Shown here: positions 3,334-62,368 of the stretch, one piece after another
How positions within the stretch are numbered: the first letter of the stretch is position 1
Layout of the letters: each line of letters begins with the position of its first letter
Assembly (NCBI RefSeq): GCF_006345805.1
Contig: NC_043020.1
Span: forward strand, 1,736,001-1,800,000
Origin: Octopus sinensis
Taxonomy: Eukaryota
Length of the DNA: 64,000 nucleotides
Reading direction: 5' to 3'
Translations under genes and position numbers: made by a program
Notes under the pieces: model-generated
Told to the model about the DNA's origin: nothing
What the model saw: the letters and a program-made list of their open reading frames with translations, nothing else
Database searches by the model: none

Positions 3334-3920
3334 GGCGTAGGAGTGGTTGTGTGGTAAGTAGCTTGCTTATGAACTGCACGGTTCCAGGTTCAGTCCCACT
3401 GTGTGCTACCTTGGGCAAGTGTCTTCTTCTATAGCCTCGGGCCGTACAAAGCCTTGTGAGTAGATTTGGTAGACAGAAACTGAAAAGAGCCCGTCGTATA
3501 TATATATATATATATATATATATGGAGTGGCTGTGTGGTAAGTAGCTTGCTTACAAACTGCATGGTTCCGGATTCAGTCCCATTGCATGGCACCTTGGGC
3601 AAGTGCCTTCTACTATAGCCTCGGGCTGATGAAAGCCTTGTGAGTGGATTTGGTAGAGGAAACTGAAAGAAGCCAGTCGTATATATGTATATATATGTAT
3701 GTGTGTGTGTGTATGTTTGTGTGTCTGTGTTTGTCCCCCCAACATCGCTTGACAACCGATGCTGGTGTGTTTACGTCCCTGTAACTTAGGCGTTCAGCAA
3801 AAGAGACCGATAGAATAAGTTCTAGGCTTACGAAGAATAAGTCCTGGGGTCGATTTGCTCGACTAAAGGTAGTGCTCCAGCATGGCCACAGTCAAATGAC
3901 TGAAACAAGTAAAAGAGTAT
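3334..3920 (+). mobile_element. tRNA-derived SINE family A (CORE-like domain, internal microsatellite), duplicated head
   Basis: A/B-box-like head (tggctgtgtggtaag...ggttcagtccc), CORE-like ccttgggcaagt motif, (AT)/(GT) linker, conserved tail ending gaaacaagtaaaagagt. Confidence 0.9.
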
Positions 3921-13319: not shown

Positions 13320-13728
13320 TTATTTCTTTATTACCCACAAGGGGCTAAACACAGACGGAACAAACAAGGACAGACAAAGGGACTAAGTCGTTTATATCGA
13401 CCCCGGTGCGTAACTGGTACTTTATTTATCGACCCCGAAAGGATGAAAGGCAAAGTCGACCTCGGCGGAATTTGAACTCAGAACGTAACGACAGACGAAA
13501 TACCTATTTCTTTACTACCCACAAGGGGCTAAACACAGACGGGACAAACAAGGACAGACAAAGGGATTAAGTCGTTTATATCGACCCCAGTGCGTAACTG
13601 GTACTTTATTTATCGACCCCGAAAGGATGAAAGGGAATGTCGACCTCGGCGGAATTTGAACTCAGAACGTAGCGGCAGACGAAATACCGCAAAGCTTTTC
13701 GCCCGGCGTGCTAACGTTTCTGCCAGCT
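13320..13728 (-). mobile_element. SINE family B, head-to-tail dimer
   Basis: Two units of about 185 bp joined at gacgaaatacc|tatttctttactaccc. Confidence 0.9.
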
Positions 13729-15639: not shown

Positions 15640-16150
15640 TGGACCCCTGGTACTTAATTTATCGACCCCGAAAGGATGAAAGGCAAAGTCAAACCTCGGC
15701 GGAATTTGAACTCTGAACGTAACGGCAAACGAAATACCTATTTCTTTACTACCCACAAGAGGCTAAACACAGAGGGGACAAACAAGGACAGATAAACGGA
15801 TCAAGTCGATTATATCGACTCCAGTGCGTAACTGGTGCCTATTTAATGGACCTCGAAAGGATGAAAGGCAAAGTCGACCTCGGCGGAATTTGAACTCAGA
15901 ACGTAAGGAGAGATGAAATACCTATTTCTTTACTACCCACAAGGGGCCAAACACAGAGGGGACAAACAAGGACGGACAAACGGTTTAAGCCGATTATATT
16001 GACCCCAGTGCGTAACTGGTACTTAATTTATCGACCCCGAAAGGATGAAAGGCAAAGTCGACCTCGGCGGAATTTGAACTCGTAACGTAGCGACAGACGA
16101 AATACCGATAAGCATTTCGCCCGGCATGCTAACAATTCTGCCAGGTCGCC
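15640..16150 (-). mobile_element. SINE family B, tandem trimer
   Basis: Units joined at gaaatacc|tatttcttt (about 15738 and 15922); another tandem run at 16760-17068. Confidence 0.9.
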
Positions 16151-19849: not shown

Positions 19850-21253
19850 TTACCTATCATGTCTAGTCAGGTGCGCTAGTCTGGCCATGTTGGGCATCTT
19901 GAAAACATTAGGATTCCAAAGCAGTTGTTCTAGTGTGAGATTGTGCACTGTAAAAGAGCCATTCAAGTAGTGAGTTCTTGTTGAGTGAGTTGTATCCAGG
20001 TATGGGTGGCTTATCTGGGATTCCTTGAAGAAATCTGTCCAGAATCCGTTTAAAGGTGATGAGATCCTTTTCCTCTTTGATCAGTTTTGGGACAATGTTA
20101 AACAGGGCGGCAAGGCCTGTTGAGGAAAAGAAATTACGTCGCAGTGTACCTATATGTTGTGATCCTAAATTAGACAGCAGACGTATGGCCTGTGGTCCTA
20201 GCCTTGGATGACACTTGAAACTAATGTTCAGGTCGTTTGGGCAAAGTTGGCGGTATATTCTCCACATCGTACAAATGATGTACTGCTCGCGGCGGCGCTG
20301 GAGAGAGTAGAGTTTCATGGCTTTAAGGCGGTCGCAGTAATCGAAATCAGTCATGCCTTCAATTCGTTTAGTGAGTGCCCTCTGGGGTGATTCAATCCTC
20401 GATATGTTTTGTATGGGGAGACCACAAGGGGAAGCAGTATTCGAGGTGTGGCGGTACAAAAGAGGAGAAAAGTGGAATCATAGCACCTTGCTCTCTGAAC
20501 CGGAAGGTTCTTAAGATCCAGGAGCTCATCTTGCGAGCTATATCGACCTTATTGTTGATGTGGGCACTCCAACTGAGATTGTTATCAACTATTACATCTA
20601 GGTCTCTGATATTATTAGATACCGTGAGCGGTTTCCCTGAAGGAAGAGATTATGGCTGTTTTAGTAAAGACTTTCTTCCAAAATGCATCAGCTCAAATTT
20701 TCCCTCGTTCAGTTGCATTTTGTTTCTGTCTGCCCATTGACCCACAGCCTATAGATTTGGAGTTGAGTTCGGTCTTCTTCTTCATTGAGAATTTGCTGGA
20801 GCTTAGTGTCATCAGCAAATATTTTCACTTTGCAGTGATTTACGACGCTGGAAAGGTCGTTTACGTAAATTATGAAGAGGAGGGAGCCCAAGAAGTCCCC
20901 TGAGGGACACGACTGATAACTTTTGCTGGGCTTCCATCGACCACAACTCCTTGTGTTCTATTCGCCAGGAAATACTTAATCCAGTGTAGAATTTTTCCAC
21001 GGATTCCAACATTTGCCAATTTTGAGAGTAAGATATTATGGTCAATACTGTTGAACGCTTTACTGAAGTCAAGATATATGACGTCAGAGTTCAAACTTGT
21101 TCCCAAGGCTTTGAGTACATCTTCAATGTGGTGTAAGAGCTGTGTTAGACATTCCCTACCACAGCGAAAGCCATGCTGATTTCCATTTAGGAGTTTGTGG
21201 GTCTTCAGGAAGTCAGCTATCCTTGATCTTACCACTCTTTCAAACACTTTAAT
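19850..21253 (-). mobile_element. CR1/L2-group LINE, decayed RT and 3' end
   Basis: NQHGFRCGRECLTQLL, VIYLDFSKAFNSIDH, VPQG, LLFIIYVNDL, IFADDTKL, KLYSLQRRRE; frameshifted. Confidence 0.92.
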
Positions 21254-21322
<69 letters not shown>

Positions 21323-21803
21323 GTATATATATATAACAACCAGCTCATTAAATTAACGTGACAAGGCTGGCCCTTTGAAACACAGGCACTACTCATTTTT
21401 GCCAGCTGGGTGTCCTGGAGCAGCGTAAAGTAAAGTGTGTTGCTCAAGGACACGACGCGCTACCGTGAATCGAACTCAAGGTTTGATGATCGTGAGCCGA
21501 ACAACTTAATCACTAAGCTACTTGCCTTCACATACATGCGCACACACACACCTATATGGCATTTATATATTATGTAATAAATTTACATATATATATATAT
21601 ATAGCACAATACATCACATAATATTTAGAAATGGATAATGTTATTCCACATGAAAGCATTAAAAATATGATTACGCAAGTGTTTATGTACATGTATGCTC
21701 ATATACATATATATGTGTGTATGTGTATATATATATATATGGAGAGTGAGAGAGAGAGAGAGAAAGAAAGAGGGTGAGAGAGAGGTTCATGTATATATAT
21801 ATA

Positions 21804-24259: not shown

Positions 24260-25030
24260 CACAAGGCCAGCGATTTCGGGAAGGGGCTAAGTCGATCAAA
24301 TCGACCCCAGTACTCAACTGGTACTTATTTTATCAAATCTGGTAGGATGAAAGACAAAGTCGACCTTGGCGGAATATAAATGCGGACGAAATGCCGCTAA
24401 GCATTTTGCCCAGAGTACTAAAGAGTCTGGCAACTTCCGGCAATTTCGTGGGTGGGGGAGGGCTAGTCGATTATATCGACCCCTGTGCTCAGCTGGTACT
24501 TATTTTATCGATCCCGGAAGGATGAAAGGCAAAGTCGACCTCAGCGGAATTTCGACTCAGAACATAAAGACAGGCGAAATGGCGCCAAGCATTTCATCCA
24601 GGGTGCTAACGATTCTTATTTCTTTATTGCCCACGAGAGGTTACACATAGAGGGGACAAACAAAGGCAGACAAAGGGATTAAGTCGATTATATCGACCCC
24701 AGTGCGTAACTGGTACTTATTTAATCGATCCCGAAAGGATGAAAGGCAAAGTCAACCTCGGCGGAATTTGAACTCAGAACGTTAAAACAGACGAAATACC
24801 TATTTCTTTACTACCCACAAGGGGCTAAATGCAGAGAGGACAAACAAGGATAGACAAACGGATTAAGTCGATTATATCGACCCCAGTGCGTAACTGGTAC
24901 TTATTTAATCGACCCCGAAAGGATGAAAGGCAAAGTCGACCTCGGCGGAATTTGAACTCAGAACGTAACAGCAGACGAAATACCGCTAAGCATTTCGCCC
25001 GGCGCGCTAACGATTCTGCCAGTTCGCCAC
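24260..25030 (-). mobile_element. Cluster of about four family B SINE units
   Basis: Repeated ggatgaaaggcaaagtcgacctcggcggaatt blocks; junctions at about 24615 and 24800. Confidence 0.9.
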
Positions 25031-27859: not shown

Positions 27860-28335
27860 CCCACTGAGGAGGCAACAGATTTCCAACAAAGATACAAGGC
27901 TCCAACTTTGCAATGTAGTTAACAGCGATAAATTCACATTTGAAACTTGAGAAAAGTCTTGTATATTTTTACTGTTCCAATCACAGATTGCACTTGTAAC
28001 ATACGAATTAGCCGGTTGATTTCTCTTTTTGAAAATCCCAGTTTATCCGGATTCACCGTAATGCATTTACTATCAAAACCTAGTGCTCCAATAATTAATG
28101 GTATGAATATGAATTCATAGTCTGGATAAAGAAACTGGAGGTTACGTTGATATTTCTAGCAGTTGAAGATCCTAGCATGTAACCATTTGTTTTTTGCAGT
28201 AGGAACGATAAAGGATTCAGTGCCAAAATGAAAAGAAGTACAGAAAGACTATCTCCCAGGAATATTCCCTTTGCAATGCCTATACTATCAGAAATAGTTA
28301 TTCTATTCTCAGTTGGAAGGGTGAGAATTGTTGTC
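27860..28335 (-). mobile_element. R4/Dong-like reverse transcriptase fragment
   Basis: ISDSIGIAKGIFLGDSLSVLLFILALNPLSFLL resembles the GIFQGDSLSPLLF...LNPLS motif of R4-clade RTs. Confidence 0.75.
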
Positions 28336-29146
28336 CATATATGTACGTATGTATGTATGTATGTATGTATGTATGTATGTATGTATGTATGTATGTATGT
28401 ATGTATGTATGTATGTATGCATGCATGTATGTATGCATGTATGTATGTATGCATGTATGTATGTATGTATGTATGTGTGAGTGTGTGTATGTGTGTGTAT
28501 GTGTGTGTGTGTGTGTGTATGTGTGTGTTTGTGTGATTGCGTTTTTATGTTTGTAACTCACCACCGTTTGACGGCCCGTTTCGGTTTGCTCACGTGTCCC
28601 GTTAATCTAGCCGTTCGGCAAAATAGACTGATAGAATAAATAACAAAAAAAAAAAAAACCCAACAATTACACGAGGGTCGATTTGTTCGACTAAATCCCT
28701 TCAAGACGATGCCCCAGCATGGCCATAGTAGAATGACTTAAACAAGTAAAACACAGTAAACGATAATATAAAAGATACTTTCTTACTATAGATATCAGCG
28801 CTTTCCTGATCGATGCGTGACGAGGGAGATTTGGCTGCTATCTTTAACAACCGTATACGTTTCTATGTACGAAATTATTACATAATATTTGTGTATTTAT
28901 TACATAAATAAGTCATAAATCTGTCTTCTTGATGAGATCAATGTGAACCATCCCATGCTACCGATACTAAACTTCCTTCCAACTGACACAGTCGAGATGG
29001 CCATAAAGAAATGAATCTGTCTAATTAACCGTCATTTCGTTTCATCCGAATATTTAGTGTTTAACTTTGTGTGGGAAATCAGGGCAAATTGCTATCGTCT
29101 CCTCTACTTGACGTCTTGATATAGACAATATCACAGAGTTCTTTTC

Positions 29147-32479: not shown

Positions 32480-32579
32480 NNNNNNNNNNNNNNNNNNNNN
32501 NNNNNNNNNNNNNNNNNNNNNNNNNNNNNNNNNNNNNNNNNNNNNNNNNNNNNNNNNNNNNNNNNNNNNNNNNNNNNNN
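32480..32579. other. Assembly gap
   Basis: 100 consecutive N; contiguity across the gap is not guaranteed. Confidence 1.
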
Positions 32580-33662
32580 GGAAAATTTAGGCGTTTTCGC
32601 TCAATAAACACTCACAACGCCCGGTCTTGGAATCGAAACCGCGATCCTACGACCGCGAGTCCGCTGCCCTAACCACTGGGCCATTGCGCCTCCTTAGTCA
32701 TCAGGAAGGTCAGAAATGCAACAAAAATTTTGAATAGCTGTGTCAAATGAAAGATTATCATGGAAAAATGGCACTCGATATGAAATTAACGAAAATCGAC
32801 TAAATCTAAAAACTCAACATATAATCTTCTCTATAGCTTCTTCATGGTCTGCTGGGGTACCCCCTCTTCATGATATATTTACGTACCATACAGTTAGAGA
32901 AAAGAAATTATTAAAATTAGTCATTACGCATTTTTCCCACTTCAGATATTCTTTTGAAAATTTAATATTATCAAATTAGATATTAGTGCAGGAAAAAAAT
33001 ATTGACTTGGAATCCAACAAAGAAAAGAACTTTTATTGTTAAACATCAAAAATTATCCAGATATTTTACCAGCGACAACTTTTACGATTGCGTCAAAGAC
33101 GAGGAAAAATTTCTTGGAAAAAATATCTGTCAAATGACTATGTTTCAAAATGTCTCAACCTCAACAACTACAACAACTATGCTGATCAATTTTAATTCTC
33201 AAAGATGATGCAAGCTGTACGAAATAAATGATGATGGCACAACGCTTGCAATGTAGTCGTCTGAAGCAAGTAAAACGAAAAATGAAGTCAGAAATTACTT
33301 ATTCTGCGCCACCCATATCTAACTTATACATTATTTCGTTAGCGCGCCGGGCGAAATGTTTAGCGGTATTTCGTCTGCCGCTACGTTCTGAGTTCAAATT
33401 CCGCCGAGGTCGACTTTATCTTTCATCCTTTCGGGGTCGATAAATAAAGTACCAGTTTCGCACTGGGTGGGTGGGGGGTCGATGTAATCGACTTAATCCC
33501 TTTGTCTGTCCTTGTTTGTCCCCTCTAAGTTTAGCCCCTTGTGGGCAATAAAGAAATATATATATTATTTCTTTGATGTTTATATTAAGTAAGCGATCTA
33601 TAAATATTAATTAACTGTTAATTGTTATCACCCATGATCAAAAAAAAAAAACTGACTATAAG

Positions 33663-33827
33663 TAGGCGCAGGAGTGGCTGTGTGGTAAGTAGCTTGTTTA
33701 CCAACCACATGGTTCCGGGTTCAGTCCCACTGCGTGGAACCTTGGGCAAGTGTCTTCTACGATAGCCTCGAGCCGACCAAACCTTGTGATGGATTTGGTA
33801 GACGAAACTGAAAGAAGCCTGTCGTAA

Positions 33828-33867
<40 letters not shown>

Positions 33868-34470
33868 GGCGCAGGAGTGGCTGTGTTGTAAGTAGCTTGT
33901 TTACCACCACATGGTTCCGGGTCAGTCCCACTGCGTGGCACCTTGGGCAAGTGTCTTCTACTATAGCCTCGGGCCGACCAAAGCCTTGTGAGTGGATTTG
34001 GTAGACGGAAACTGAAAGAAGCCTGTCGTATATATGTATATATATATATATGTAGGCGCAGGAGTAGCTGTGTGGTAAGTAGCTTGTTTACCAACCACAT
34101 GGTTCCGGGTTCAGTCCCACTGCGTGGCACCTTGGGCAAGTGTCTTCTACTATAGCCTCAGGTTGACCAATGCCTTGTGAGTGGATTTGGTAGACAGAAA
34201 CTGAAAGAAGCCCGTTGTATATATGTATATATATGTATGTGCGTGTATGTTTGTGTGTCTGTGTTTGTCCCCCTAGCATTGCTTGACAACCGATGCTGGT
34301 GTGTTTATGTCCCCATCACTTAGCGGTTCGGCAAATGAGACCGATAGAATAAGTACTGGGCTTACAAAGAATAAGTCCCGGGGTCGAGTTGCTCGTTCAA
34401 AGGCGGTGCACCAGCATGGCCGCAGTCAAATGGCTGAAACAAGTAAAAAGAGAAAAAGAGAAAGAGAAAG
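33663..34470 (+). mobile_element. SINE family A with three tandem heads and one tail
   Basis: taggcgcaggagt at 33663, 33866 and 34053, separated by (AT)n. Confidence 0.9.
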
Positions 34471-36553: not shown

Positions 36554-37784
<1,231 letters not shown>

Positions 37785-47925: not shown

Positions 47926-47969
<44 letters not shown>

Positions 47970-48174
47970 TTTATAATTAATCAATATAGGGTGGCAAAAA
48001 AAAATTTTGTAGAATTTTTTTGCCACCAGCGGCCTAGTGGGAAAAAATTAAATAGTCATAGACCATTTTTAAGTTCAACATCAACAATCAAGGAACGGCC
48101 ATAATAGGCCATTCACCCACTAGAAATAACAGCCAATAACAGCCTCGTGAAAATATCTGTTCCGACTTGTGGCT

Positions 48175-48281
48175 ATTTCTTACTGAAGAATCTGAGGGCC
48201 TATGGAAGATTGGCTTGATTTAATTTAATCAGGTTAGTTTACCATTAAACAGCAGATGAAACGGTGCATCGTATAAGAAAT
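48175..48281 (+). ncRNA. Type I hammerhead ribozyme motif, intact core
   Basis: atttctta CTGAAGA atctg...cagat GAAAC ggtgcatc GTA taagaaat: 8-bp stem I, extended stem II, self-complementary stem III, GUA cleavage triplet at 48271-48273. Confidence 0.85.
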
Positions 48282-48591
48282 TACAGGGTAAATGTTTTTT
48301 AAATTTTCTCCTGTTTACGGAATTGACTTTTATTTGCGGTTGAAGCTTTGGCTGTTATTTCTAGTGGGTGAATGGCCTATTATGGCCGTTCCTTGATTGT
48401 TGATATATATATATATATATATAACACTATACTTGTTCCACGTCCTCGCGGTTGTTGTATTTTCTCTTTGTGTTTTCATGTTTGGATTAACTATATATAT
48501 GTATATATATATATATATATATATAGATGAGAAAGTTGGTTTGTGAAAGCACGTGGTTGAATATATAGAAAATAGTAAAAAGTGAAAAAAC

Positions 48592-53639: not shown

Positions 53640-55150
53640 TGAAAACACTGGTAATTGCGCAACCTGATAATCGCTACCTCATATGAGTGACAATGAAAAA
53701 AAGAAAATATTGTGAATAACGGCGAGAATGAAACTGAAGGCAATGATGGTGATAGTGTTCTACCCGGCAGGCTCAGAGATTCTGGCTTGGCTCCAGCCTG
53801 TCGATATCCAGAAAGGGACCACCACACACGGCGTAGATGGAGCAAGCAAATTAATGCTGTCGTCATGGAGTGTTACTACCTGAGCGGGACGGTAGATGAA
53901 AATGGTGCTCAAATTAGGGGTTACCAACAACGTATATATGATCATTGGAAAGAAAAGGGATTGTTTCAACTCACGGAACAGAGAGCATGTGATCAAGCAA
54001 GAGCAATAAGAAAAAATTGTTGGGTGACAGAAGTAGAGCTCGAAGCTATCAAAAGACGGGTCATGGAAAATATCAGCAGAGATAACAATGAAAATACAGT
54101 TCTTACTAGTAAGAGTAATCTCATAGCACAAGAAAGAACCAGTGGTATTTTCTTTTTATGAGAGACTTATAGTTGATCTAAAAAAAGACAATAAAACTAA
54201 TGGCGACATGACAGATGAACAAAAGGCAGTCTACGATAGAATAAAGTCAAGACTACAGGAGAACGATAGCGACATTATTTGCAACTTTGAATAGGTTGAT
54301 CGATGGAAATTGAACCAAGAAACGAAAAATGTGAATGAAATTCTGAAATACATCAGAACAAACAACATCACAGAAACAAATAATTTGATCAAGGCAGCAA
54401 GTATTGTTGTAGCCGAAAACGTGGGTGTTGACGCCAAGAAAAAGAAACATAATGGGAGTGACAAAAGAAACGATCCATGGTGGCTAAGAAGAATCCAGGC
54501 AGGGTTAGACATGCTCTCAAAGGAAATCTCTATGTTTGACCGAAAAGAGAAAGGGGAACTTAAAAGCGAACAAAAATACAGGGAGCTGAAAAGGAAATAT
54601 AATATTGAAAGAAAGGGCCTGAAAGTAGTAGTGGAGGAACTGAAATAGTGCCTCGTTGCAAACAAAGCAAACATGGTAAGATACGACCAAAGAATGAAGG
54701 GTTACCACCAGAATAGGTTATGCAGAGTAGATCAGAAGAGATTCTATAAAGAAATAAATGGAGGATGTACAGAGGAAAAATTGATACCAGATAACATTGA
54801 AAGTCAAAGGTTTTGGAGTGATATTTGGAGCAAAGAAAAGGATCACAAGAAGGATGCTGAATGGTTGCAAGAACTGAAACAAACAGTAGTCTATCCAAAG
54901 CAGGCAGAACTAGTCATTTCAGTTAGGGAAGTGAAGGAAATCAGCAAAAAAATGGGCAACTAGAAGGCCCCGGGACCAGATGGAGTTCAAGGCTACTGAA
55001 TCAAAAGATTTGATGAATGTCATGCACGAATAGCCGCACAACTCAACACCTTGTTAAATGCCGAACAAGTAATATCAGAGAGATTGGCAATGGGTAGGAC
55101 AGAGCTGTGCTTGAAAAACATCGAACGGTAGACAATTACAGGCCGATACA
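53640..55150 (+). mobile_element. R4/Dong-clade LINE, decayed 5' portion
   Basis: RRWSKQINAVVMECYY..GYQQRIYDHWK..TEQRACDQARAIRKN, PWWLRRIQ, QNRLCRVDQKRFYKEI, FWSDIWS, KAPGPDGVQGY; in-frame stops; breaks off at the start of the RT domain. Confidence 0.88.
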
Positions 55151-58073: not shown

Positions 58074-61000
58074 TATAGCATTTTAGTCATCATACCATTT
58101 TAGTCATATCATTTTAGTCATCATAGCATTTTAGTCATCATAGCATTTTAGTCATTATACCATTTTAGTCATCATAGCATTTTAGTCATTATACCATTTT
58201 AGTCATCATACCATTTTAGTCATATAGCATTTTAGTCATCATAGCATTTTAGCCATCATACCATTTTAGTCATCATAGCATTTTAGTGATCATAACATTT
58301 TAGTAATCATACATTTTAGTCATCATAGCATTTTAGTCATCATACCATTTTAGTCATCATACTATTTTAGTCATCATAGCATTTTAGTGATCAAACATTT
58401 TAGTCATCATAGCAGCATTTTAGTCATCATAGCATTTTAGCATCATACCATTTTAGTCATCATACTATTTTAGTCATCATAGCATTTTAGTATCATACCA
58501 TTTTAGTCATCATAGCATTTTAGTCATCATACCATTTTAGTCATCATAGCATTTTAGTCATCACACCATTTTAGTCATCATACTATTTTAGTCATCATAG
58601 CATTTTAGCCATCATACCATTTTAGCCATCATACCATTTTAGCCATCATAGCATTTTAGTCATCATAGCATTTTAGTGATCATAACATTTTAGTAATCAT
58701 AGCATTTTAGTCATCATAGCATTTTAGTCATCATACCATTTTAGTCATCATACTATTTTAGTCATCATAGCATTTTAGTGATCATAACATTTTAGTCATC
58801 ATAGCATTTTAGTCATCATAGCATTTTAGTCATCATACCATTTTAGTCATCATACTATTTTAGTCATCATAGCATTTTAGTCATCATACTATTTTAGTCA
58901 TCATACCATTTTAGTCATCATACCATTTTAGCCATCATACCATTTTAGTCATCATAGCATTTTAGTGATCATAACATTTTAGTAATCATAGCATTTTAGT
59001 CATCATAGCATTTTAGTTAGTCATCACATACCATTTTAGTCATCATACATTTTAGTAATCATACCATTTTAGTCATCATAGCATTTTAGTCATCATACCA
59101 TTTTAGTCATCATACATTTTAGTCATCATAGCATTTTAGTCATCATAGCATTTTAGTCATTATAACCATTTTAGTCATCATACCATTTTAGTCATCATAG
59201 CATTTTAGTCATCATACCATTTTAGTCATCATACCATTTTAGCCATCATACCATTTTAGTCATCATAGCATTTTAGTGATCATAACATTTTAGTAATCAT
59301 AGCATTTTAGTCATCATAGCATTTTAGTCATCATACCATTTTAGTCATCATACTATTTTAGTCATCATAGCATTTTAGTGATCATAACATTTTAGTCATC
59401 ATAGCATTTTAGTCATCATAGCATTTTAGTCATCATAGCATTTTAGTCATTATACCATTTTAGTCATCATACCATTTTAGTCATCATAGCATTTTAGCCA
59501 TCATACCATTTTAGTCATCATAGCATTTTAGCCATCATAACATTTTAGTCATCATAGCATTTTAGTGATCATAACATTTTAGTAATCATACCATTTTAGT
59601 CATCATACTATTTTAGTCATCATAGCATTTTAGCCATCATACCATTTTAGTCATCATAGCATTTTAGCCATCATACCATTTTAGTCATCATAGCATTTTA
59701 GTGATCATAACATTTTAGTAATCATAGCATTTTAGTCATCATAGCATTTTAGTCATCATACCATTTTAGTCATCATACTATTTTAGTCATCATAGCATTT
59801 TAGTGATCATAACATTTTAGTCATCATAGCATTTTAGTCATCATAGCATTTTAGTCATCATACCATTTTAGTCATCATACTATTTTAGTCATCATAGCAT
59901 TTTAGTAATCATACCATTTTAGTCATCATAGCATTTTAGTCATCATACCATTTTAGTCATCATAGCATTTTAGTCATCACACCATTTTAGTCATCATACT
60001 ATTTTAGTCATCATAGCATTTTAGTCATCATACCATTTTAGCCATCATACCATTTTAGTCATCATAGCATTTTAGTGATCATAACATTTTAGTAATCATA
60101 GCATTTTAGTCATCATAGCATTTTAGTCATCATACCATTTTAGTCATCATACTATTTTAGTCATCATAGCATTTTAGTGATCATAACATTTTAGTCATCA
60201 TAGCATTTTAGTCATCATAGCATTTTAGTCATCATCAAGTAATAGCATTTTAGTCATTATACCATTTTAGTCATCATACCATTTTAGTCATCATAGCATA
60301 TTTAGAGCATCAGACCATTTTTAGTCATCATAGCATTTTAGCCATCATAACATTTTAGTCATCATAGCATTTTAGTGATCATAACATTTTAGTAATCATA
60401 CCATTTTAGGTCATCATACTATTTTAGTCATCATAGCATTTTAGTCATCATACTATTTTAGTCATCATAGCATTTTAGTCATCATAGCATTTTAGTCATC
60501 ATACATTAGATCCATTTTAGTCATCATAGCATTTTATATCATCATAGCATTTTAGTAATCATACCATTTTAGTCATCATAGCATTTTATCATCATATAAC
60601 ATTTTAGTCATCATAGCATTTTAGTCATCATAGCATTTTAGTCATCATACCATTTTAGTCATCATACTATTTTAGTCATCATAGCATTTTAGTCATCATA
60701 CCATTTTAGCCATCATACCATTTTAGTCATCATAGCATTTTAGTGATCATAATATTTTAGTAATCATAGCATTTTAGTAATCATAGCATTTTAGTCATCA
60801 TACCATTTTAGTCATCATAACATTTTAGTCATCATAGCATTTTAGTGATCATAACATTTTAGTCATCATAGCATTTTAGTCATCATAGCATTTTAGTCAT
60901 CATAACACATTTAAGTCATCATACTATTTTAGTCATCATAAGCATTTAGTATCATCATAAATAAGCATTTTAGTCATCATAAGCCATTTTAGTCATCATA

Positions 61001-62368
61001 GCATTTTAGTCATCATCCATTTTTTAGTGATCATAACATTTTAGTAATCATAGCATTTTAGTCATCATAGCATTTTAGTCATCATACCATTTTAGTCATC
61101 ATACATTTTAGTCATCATAGATAGCCATTTTAGTGATCATAACTTTTAGTCATCATAGCATTTTAGTCATCATAGCATTTTAGTAGTCATCATACCATTT
61201 TAGTCATCATACTATTTTAGTCATCATAGCATTTTAGTGATCATAACATTTTAGTCATCATAGCATTTTAGTCATCATAGCATTTTAGTCATCATACCAT
61301 TTTAGTCATCATACTATTTTAGTCATCATAGCATTTTAGTCATCATAGCATTTTAGTCATCATACCATTTTAGTCATCATACTATTTTAGTCATCATAGC
61401 ATTTTAGTCATCATAGCATTTTAGTCATCATACCATTTTAGTCATCATACTATTTTAGTCATCATAGCATTTTAGTCATCATACTATTTTAGTCATCATA
61501 GCATTTTAGTCATCATACCATTTTAGTCATCATACTATTTTAGTCATCATACTATTTTAGTCATCATACCATTTTAGTCATCATATACATTTTAGTCATC
61601 ATACTATTTTAGTCATCATAGCATTTTAGTCATCTAGCATTTTTAGTCATCATCATACTATTTTAGTCCATCATACTATTTTAGTCATCATAGCATTTTA
61701 GTCATCATAGCATTTTAGTCATCATAGCATTTTAGTCATCATATACCATTTTAGTAGTCATCATAGCATTTTAGTCATCATCCATTTTTAGTCATCATAC
61801 TATTTAGTAGTCATACGTCCCATAGCATTTTAGTCATCATAGCATTTTAGTCATCATACCATTTTAGTCATCATACATGTTACCACCATTTTATCATCAT
61901 ATTTTAGTCATCACATTTTAGTTCATCATAGCATTTTGTCATCATAACCATTTTAGTCATCATACTATTTTGTCATCATAGCATTTTAGAGTCATCATAG
62001 CATTTTAGTCATCTGATCTCCATTTTCATCATCATAGCATTTTAGTCATCATAGTATTTTAGTCATCATAGCATTTTAGTCATCATAGCATTTTAGTCAT
62101 CATACTATTTTAGTCATCATACTATTTTAGTCATCATAGCATTTTAGTCATCATAGCATTTTAGTCATCATAGCATTTTAGTCATCATACCATTTTAGTC
62201 ATCATAGCATTTTAGTCATCATACCATTTTAGTCATCATACTATTTTAGTCATCATAGCATTTTAGTCATCATAGCATTTTAGTCATCATACCATTTTAG
62301 CCATCATACCATTTTAGTCATCATAGCATTTTAGTGATCATACTATTTTAGTCATCATAGCATTTTAG
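58074..62368. repeat. 17-bp tandem satellite, about 250 units
   Basis: Unit CATTTTAGTCATCATAG with a few recurrent variants (..CATAC, ..CATACT, GTGATCATAA, GTAATC, GCCATC). Confidence 0.99.

What the first reader, a model, noticed from the sequence alone, without database searches (positions are those of the whole stretch)
48080..48404. Intact hammerhead enclosed by a perfect 57-bp inverted repeat
Seen: 48080-48136 and 48348-48404 are exact reverse complements and enclose a complete hammerhead. It has an 8-bp stem I (atttctta/taagaaat), CUGAAGA, a long stem II containing gattggcttgatt/aatcaggttagtt, GAAA, a self-complementary stem III (acggtgcatcgt) and a GUA site; (AT)n flanks the unit. Inference: a young Penelope-type insertion with an inverted partial pseudo-LTR, or a MITE-like ribozyme cassette. 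The palindromic stem III would permit dimeric cleavage.
Basis: partly seen in the sequence, partly recalled or inferred. Interest (0 to 1): 0.75.

Follow-up and report, generated by a model that had tools for sequence, protein, structure and literature searches.

The report
Truncated two-armed hammerhead retrozyme copy
This is a short, two-armed copy of a young, protein-free 490-base jumping repeat that carries a predicted self-cutting hammerhead RNA and lands in TA microsatellites; its 57-base inverted repeat is only the overlap of the two arms, and the family's copies likely record a Penelope-type enzyme copying one small RNA circle from both cut DNA ends.

Summary
The 57-bp inverted repeat and the type I hammerhead are real, but the unit is larger: about 47970-48404. 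It is a truncated copy of a ~490-bp non-coding monomer that occurs in tandem arrays at hundreds of loci or more, inside (AT)n. Of 110 insertions mapped (this family and a 70%-identical sister family), 93 have two head-to-head arms: one ends at fixed site A (~130 nt past the cleavage site), the other at fixed site B (~100-105 nt further). None is A+A; one composite locus has a B+B-like half. The inversion junction varies, so arm overlap runs from 0 to 1,491 bp, which refutes the MITE reading. Units within one insertion share a haplotype across both arms (0.9% apart versus 4.4% between insertions), as expected if one monomer RNA circle was copied round repeatedly. This is a new member of the animal non-LTR retrozymes with Penelope-style tail and inversion. 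Cleavage, circular RNA and the partner enzyme were not shown. The scan has reported this kind before on other DNA (13 notes matched my words, at least 3 genomes, this one included).

The parts
47928..47969 (.). (TA)n target microsatellite, left part
   Evidence: (all mapped ends of the 40 family-1 insertions run into (AT)n, a few after a short filler)
47970..48136 (-). Inverted arm (B arm): monomer positions 434-489 followed by 1-108; its outer end is fixed site B (tail about 105 nt beyond site A)
47990..48027 (-). Hairpin just upstream (RNA sense) of site B; kept with base changes in the sister family
48080..48136 (-). Left copy of the 57-bp inverted repeat, which is the part of the B arm that overlaps the A arm
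48125..48144 (+). Inversion junction: a 10-nt tandem duplication (48125-48134 / 48135-48144) giving a 5-nt filler (48137-48141) and 3 nt shared with the A arm; likely a microhomology-type join
48142..48404 (+). Forward arm (A arm): monomer positions 229-489, 5'-truncated, ending at fixed site A
48175..48281 (+). Type I hammerhead ribozyme motif; predicted cleavage 3' of 48273; self-complementary stem III 48261-48272
48371..48391 (+). Hairpin just upstream of site A; kept with base changes in the sister family
48405..48422 (.). (AT)n target microsatellite, right part

Best explanation
This is a truncated, two-armed insertion of a non-coding ~490-nt hammerhead repeat (a non-LTR retrozyme) in an (AT)n microsatellite, likely made by a Penelope-like reverse transcriptase/endonuclease that primed both cut DNA ends at two fixed sites on what was likely one monomer RNA circle. 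Shown: the tandem monomer, the (AT)n target, fixed ends A and B with one per arm, a variable junction, and one haplotype per insertion. Inferred cycle: a tandem array is transcribed. The hammerheads, probably paired as dimers through stem III, cut out a monomer, and a host ligase closes it. A Penelope-like protein nicks both strands of (AT)n. One 3' end starts cDNA at site A and the other at site B, ~105 nt downstream on the same RNA; each site lies just 3' of a conserved hairpin. Each polymerase runs on for part of a lap or up to about 10 laps, and the two cDNAs are joined head-to-head by microhomology. Here the A arm stopped after 263 nt and the B arm after 167 nt, so they overlap by 57 nt: that overlap is the inverted repeat.
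For: Family: 727 candidate loci for this sequence; 3,892 genome-wide matches to the stem III motif against 7 for the control pattern (both families). Architecture: 35 of 40 best-hit family-1 insertions are A+B and 5 are single-armed. In the sister family, 34 of 40 are A+B, 3 single-armed and 3 unclear. Among 30 new loci taken by position along C1, 24 are A+B, 5 single-armed and 1 unclear. None is A+A. Clonality: allele sharing within an insertion is 466/666 (across arms 166/248) against a permutation mean of 0.14, maximum 0.25. In the sister family it is 2540/2748 (across arms 1116/1187) against 0.22, with 124 alleles fixed and 14 partial. Private alleles fixed in both arms occur in L032, L035, L037, L142, L149 and L165. 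Positional sample: 0.93% within insertions, 0.91% across arms, 4.4% between insertions, and nearly flat with unit separation (0.87, 0.87, 1.12, 1.05%). No scar at the cleavage site in 94 of 100 and 149 of 165 units. Hammerhead stems: 11 of 35 pairs change on both sides, 94% of cells paired; core intact in 89/102, 140/160 and 76/92 units. Intact RT + GIY-YIG frames exist in this genome. One such family ends in (AT)n at two sites about 35 nt apart, and its one inverted copy is B+A (L109). PMC11167929 shows a Penelope protein cutting and extending both strands and starting at two internal RNA sites that define the tail.
Against: No cleavage, RNA or circle was shown. No partner element was found among 60 Penelope loci. 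In PMC11167929 hammerhead cleavage was not needed for insertion in vitro and unprocessed RNA was the main template, so a homogeneous uncut multimer could also be the template. Only 1 of 9 Xenopus retrozyme dimers cleaved in the Li preprint. The 10.1-11.1 pair is weak here (paired in 3 of 10). Some alleles are shared by only some units, in part adjacent ones (L043, L052, L154), so local duplication happens too. L138 has a B+B-like half, and four loci (L037, L138, L162, L214) repeat an insertion with the same junction. The covariation rests on 10 related sequences. Two-strand extension of one template needs strand displacement, which is assumed.
Confidence: 0.62

Rival explanations
1. It is the same retrozyme family with the same two-site Penelope priming, but the template is an uncut linear multimer from an already homogeneous source array, or a linear monomer copied repeatedly by template jumping. 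No covalent circle is needed.
For: Unprocessed RNA was the dominant substrate for the Anolis Penelope protein. An uncut multimer also leaves no scar at the cleavage site. Only 110 of probably more than a thousand loci were sampled, so source arrays could be unsampled.
Against: Nested haplotypes are each fixed in all units of an insertion (124 fixed vs 14 partial), which needs a repeated one-unit bottleneck. Template jumping at the cut end should scar the junction or pile up stops there, but only 5 of 73 and 4 of 72 arm stops lie near it against 2.2 and 2.3 expected.
Confidence: 0.25
2. Short Penelope-type insertions were expanded and homogenised later in DNA by unequal crossover or gene conversion (the satellite route discussed in the Li preprint).
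For: The preprint favours local amplification. A few alleles are shared by adjacent units only, and four loci carry duplicated insertions.
Against: Divergence across the inverted junction equals that within an arm (0.91% vs 0.93%) and barely rises with unit distance. Arrays keep both fixed ends in clean register with (AT)n.
Confidence: 0.08
3. It is a MITE-like ribozyme cassette with 57-bp terminal inverted repeats moved by a DNA transposase.
For: The perfect 57-bp inverted repeat.
Against: The element extends 110 bp beyond the left arm. Overlap is 0-1,491 bp among 33 copies. Thirteen of 110 insertions have one arm only. The monomer forms tandem arrays.
Confidence: 0.01
4. The inversion is a fold-back made by self-priming on an antisense template, as proposed for rotifer Penelope elements.
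For: PMC3846280 proposes this for head-to-head repeats with palindromic junctions. Five of 33 family-1 junctions are symmetric within 10 nt.
Against: The other 28 of 33 junctions are asymmetric. Each arm ends at its own fixed site joined directly to (AT)n, and either arm can be the longer one.
Confidence: 0.04

Closest known systems
Metazoan non-LTR retrozymes (Cervera and de la Pena 2020, PMC7229834: passages and part 4 of 6 with the Discussion read; Li, Clavereau and Pollet 2026, bioRxiv 10.64898/2026.07.22.740005: parts 1 and 3 of 5 read; supplements of both not seen)
   Same: Non-coding tandem monomer, GC under 45% (35.6%), one type I hammerhead per unit, no LTR; proposed to be mobilised by Penelope-like elements through RNA circles.
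   Different: The monomer (~490 nt) is above the 150-450 bp and 170-400 nt ranges given there. Stem II carries a long hairpin. The parts I read do not describe two head-to-head arms with one fixed end each, (AT)n targeting or clonal arrays: 'inverted', 'microsatellite' and 'octopus' occur 0 times in the main text of PMC7229834.
Endonuclease-bearing Penelope-like elements: Poseidon of Anolis (PMC11167929, parts 1-2 of 4 read), Penelope/Neptune/Naiad (PMC8557442 and PMC3846280, passages read)
   Same: Partial tandems, an inverted 5'-truncated copy, a tail at one end only, AT-rich or (TA)n targets, two internal priming sites.
   Different: There is no ORF (longest ATG frames 27 and 33 aa). The tail is ~100-105 nt rather than 30-40 nt. 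Arrays run to about 10 units per arm. No sequence link to any of 60 Penelope loci examined.
Dimer-acting metazoan type I hammerheads (PMC4209133, passages read)
   Same: Conserved core and a palindromic helix III that can pair between two copies.
   Different: Helix III has 4 bp rather than 1-2, helix I has 8 bp, and 10.1-11.1 is A-U or mismatched rather than G-C.
L1 twin priming (recalled, not from a call)
   Same: Two primers on one RNA give an inverted 5' arm joined by microhomology.
   Different: In L1 the two arms do not overlap and the second site is not fixed. Here they overlap by up to several units and both sites are fixed.

Membership tests
Non-LTR retrozyme | Tandem monomers of a few hundred bases, each with a type I hammerhead | tested here: met
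   Family arrays of ~490-bp units; core intact in 89 of 102 units. The window copy itself is less than one unit.
Non-LTR retrozyme | No protein-coding capacity; low GC | tested here: met
   Longest ATG frame 27 aa; GC 35.6%
Non-LTR retrozyme | Dispersed, recently mobile copies | tested here: met
   727 candidate loci; best copies 99-100% identical over 269 bp on many contigs
Non-LTR retrozyme | Self-cleavage of the RNA | not testable with these tools
   Structure and covariation only
Non-LTR retrozyme | Expression as linear and circular monomer RNA | tested here: inconclusive
   No listed holder is on record as RNA; only contigs were available
Penelope-like element (autonomous) | ORF with RT and GIY-YIG endonuclease | tested here: not met
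   No such ORF in the monomer or next to the 30 positional loci
Penelope-like element (insertion signature) | Inverted 5'-truncated copy, tail on one end, AT-rich target | tested here: met
   93 of 110 insertions are A+B in (AT)n
Penelope-like element (derivative of a pseudo-LTR) | Sequence homology to the pseudo-LTR of a coding element | tested here: inconclusive
   Only short AT-rich chance-level hits (E >= 0.035) in 60 loci, out of 5,029 GIY-YIG and 25,048 protein-search candidates
MITE | Fixed-length terminal inverted repeats that define both ends | tested here: not met
   Overlap 0-1,491 bp in 33 copies; the left arm is internal to the element
Type I hammerhead ribozyme | CUGANGA / GAAA / NUH core with three helices, helix I open | tested here: met
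   Rfam models did not match

The most novel reading that the evidence does not exclude
Each insertion is a frozen record of bidirectional rolling-circle target-primed reverse transcription. A dimeric Penelope-like enzyme docks on two hairpin-marked sites of one ribozyme-made RNA circle, one site per nicked DNA strand, and both active sites run laps. This one rule would explain the Penelope tail, the head-to-head inversion and retrozyme tandem arrays.
Probability: 0.5. Interest if true: 0.75.

Novelty: new member of a known kind. Interest (0 to 1): 0.45.

Why it matters
The feature itself, a hammerhead inside an inverted repeat, is an ordinary by-product of a known class of element. The family matters more. 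Rolling-circle copying of retrozyme circles by a Penelope-like enzyme is a hypothesis in PMC7229834, the 2026 preprint leans towards local DNA expansion, and PMC8557442 calls the tandem/inverted structure of Penelope elements unexplained. The one-site-per-arm rule and the clonal haplotypes across both arms are genomic evidence on these open points and name exact RNA sites for an in vitro test. I did not find them in print in six literature searches (open-access library only, supplements unseen). Other notes of this scan describe the same pattern, so it is not new to the scan.

Tried and rejected
Rfam: no hammerhead match. Expression: no RNA holder listed. Contigs of four runs only guessed to be RNA cover the monomer; in three of them a single-copy control stretch had no cover but an unrelated high-copy repeat was covered as deeply or more, so this says nothing on specific expression. 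Partner search: GIY-YIG and protein searches gave at least three Penelope-like families, two with intact 775-883-aa frames. None of 60 loci resembles either monomer, and none of the 30 positional loci has an adjoining Penelope ORF. Pile-up of truncations at the cleavage site: not seen; family 1 instead has 14 of 73 stops at 200-224 nt, at the hairpin before site B. RNA editing recorded in copies (lead from e1-8822049): no A>G excess among multi-unit alleles (3 A>G vs 10 T>C; 13 vs 41), but polarity was set by majority allele, so this is inconclusive. Target-site duplication cannot be read inside (AT)n. Look-up of earlier findings by sequence returned nothing. Rows dropped before counts: homopolymer-adjacent columns and segment ends were masked; one noisy column (84) was dropped; the first duplicate copy in L037 and L214 was left out; composite loci L138 and L162 were left out; segments under 100 nt were left out of the sharing statistics.

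Full report
Observation. The inverted repeat is as described: 48080-48136 and 48348-48404, 57 nt, 100% complementary. The enclosed hammerhead has an 8-bp stem I, the core CUGAAGA, a 5-bp stem II base with a long hairpin above it, GAAA, a 4-bp stem III and a GUA site ending at 48273. It is the only hit of my descriptor in the window. Rfam does not detect it. The catalytic fold lies 1.5 kcal/mol above the minimum-energy fold. Stem III is barely stable as a hairpin (-0.1) but strong as a two-molecule duplex (-17.5), which fits the dimer model described for metazoan hammerheads in PMC4209133 (passages). On ten diverse relatives the named structure is 94% paired, with 11 of 35 pairs changed on both sides, above all shuffled and slid controls on those two measures. 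The sequences are related, so this is support and not proof; the 10.1-11.1 pair is kept in only 3 of 10.

What it belongs to. The window lies in a 2.72-Gb animal genome. It is likely an octopus, from recalled repeat content and earlier notes; I did not test this. A search with 47975-48410 gave 727 candidate loci, 40 scored, many 99-100% identical over 269 bp and in tandem at ~490-bp spacing. Mapping 39 fetched loci plus the window on a natural 489-nt unit shows that the window insertion spans about 47970-48404. It has a forward arm (unit 229-489) and an inverted arm (unit 434-489 plus 1-108), so the 57-bp repeat is their overlap. The junction has a 5-nt filler arising from a 10-nt duplication. 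Among 33 two-armed copies, 19 junctions show microhomology, 3 are blunt and 11 have filler, and the overlap ranges from 0 to 1,491 bp. The monomer has no ORF over 27 aa and is 35.6% GC.

Two fixed ends, one per arm. In 39 of 40 insertions the forward arm ends at one base, ~130 nt past the cleavage site (site A); L035 ends 11 nt short. In 35 of 40 an inverted arm ends at or near unit position 105 (site B), two of these as tails under 30 nt; 5 are single-armed. A 70%-identical sister family (~474 nt; 2,134 candidate loci) was found beside L047. It repeats the pattern: 34 of 40 A+B, 3 single-armed, 3 unclear. Because these samples were chosen by score, I took every not yet fetched locus listed by a motif search along the first 62 Mb of contig C1 (30 loci; 3,892 motif matches genome-wide against 7 for the control). 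Of these, 24 are A+B, 3 A-only, 2 B-only and 1 unclear. In total 93 of 110 are A+B and none is A+A; composite locus L138 has one B+B-like half. Independent choice of site by each arm would give about half same-site pairs. Each site follows a hairpin that is kept with base changes in both families.

One haplotype per insertion. In family 1, an allele seen in one unit is present in another unit of the same insertion in 466 of 666 comparisons (166 of 248 across arms), against a permutation mean of 0.14 and maximum 0.25. In the sister family the figures are 2540 of 2748 (1116 of 1187 across arms) against 0.22, with 124 alleles fixed and 14 partial. Several alleles private to one insertion are fixed in both arms. 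In the positional sample (28 insertions, 130 segments) units differ by 0.93% within an insertion, 0.91% across the inversion and 4.4% between insertions, with almost no dependence on unit distance. The 12 bases spanning the cleavage site are unchanged in 94 of 100 and 149 of 165 units, and arm stops do not pile up there. Against this, L043, L052 and L154 show alleles in only some units, and four loci repeat an insertion, so some DNA-level duplication or assembly artefact exists.

Mechanism. Shown: anatomy, target, end rule and clonality. From the literature: a purified Penelope protein from Anolis cuts and extends both strands of AT-rich DNA, starts at two internal RNA sites that define the genomic tail, is predicted to dimerise, and does not need hammerhead cleavage in vitro (PMC11167929, parts 1-2 of 4). 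Animal retrozymes make circular monomers, and rolling-circle copying by such an enzyme is proposed (PMC7229834). Penelope elements have an inverted 5' copy and a one-ended 30-40-bp tail of unexplained origin (PMC8557442). Inferred: both target ends prime on one monomer circle, one at A and one at B, run a variable number of laps and join head-to-head (confidence 0.62). A homogeneous uncut multimer as template is the main rival (0.25). Later DNA expansion, raised in the Li preprint, and self-priming (PMC3846280) fit poorly. This genome has intact RT + GIY-YIG frames. One family ends in (AT)n at two sites ~35 nt apart, and its one inverted copy is B+A. None of 60 such loci shares sequence with the monomers, so the partner is unidentified. 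Expression could not be judged. The window copy holds a single hammerhead and cannot itself yield a monomer: it is likely a dead-end product.

Verdict. This is a real feature and a new member of the non-LTR retrozymes with the Penelope insertion signature; it is not a MITE. Six literature searches showed no description of the one-site-per-arm rule or of clonal arrays, but the library is open-access only and supplements were not seen. My reading was formed before the look-ups. Earlier AI notes of this scan report the same pattern in this and other genomes and are not independent support. Interest 0.45.

Noticed in passing
L047:6128-6955; L135-L174: Sister retrozyme family, ~474-nt monomer, 70% identical, 2,134 candidate loci, with a perfectly palindromic stem III; one copy is inserted in the (AT)n right beside a family-1 copy. 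Its two priming sites share a similar short AT-rich motif after a hairpin.
   Followed up: yes
L037, L138, L162, L214: Whole or partial insertions repeated in tandem with an identical inversion junction; either DNA duplication through flanking (AT)n or an assembly artefact. L138 gives the only B+B-like half.
   Followed up: partly
L090-L109 (e.g. L094:2532-4877, L092): Penelope-like families with intact 775-883-aa RT + GIY-YIG frames. The 781-aa family ends in (AT)n at two sites about 35 nt apart; it and the L092/L100 family show minimal hammerhead-like motifs by eye.
   Followed up: partly
alignment A1, columns 18 and 90: The base before GAAA varies (U, C, A) while the A after CUGANGA is invariant, in both families; C variants are fixed in whole arrays.
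   Followed up: partly
L150:4823; L214:2948: Other mobile sequences interrupt retrozyme arms; the one in L214 cuts in near the hammerhead stem II / GAAA region.
   Followed up: no
window 58075-62368: 17-bp satellite array, about 252 copies, 87% matches.
   Followed up: no
window 3340-3700, 13321-13688, 15647-16106, 24617-24984, 33657-34234: Tandem dimers and trimers of ~184-189-bp SINE-like repeats.
   Followed up: no
window 37397-37553: Very high-copy short repeat (contig depth up to about 750,000 against 36 for single-copy DNA in run X15).
   Followed up: no
window 19908-21352, 28095-28544, 53697-54913: Decayed LINE-like reverse-transcriptase fragments, judged by eye from translations.
   Followed up: no
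window about 32480-32580: Run of N (assembly gap) seen in translations.
   Followed up: no
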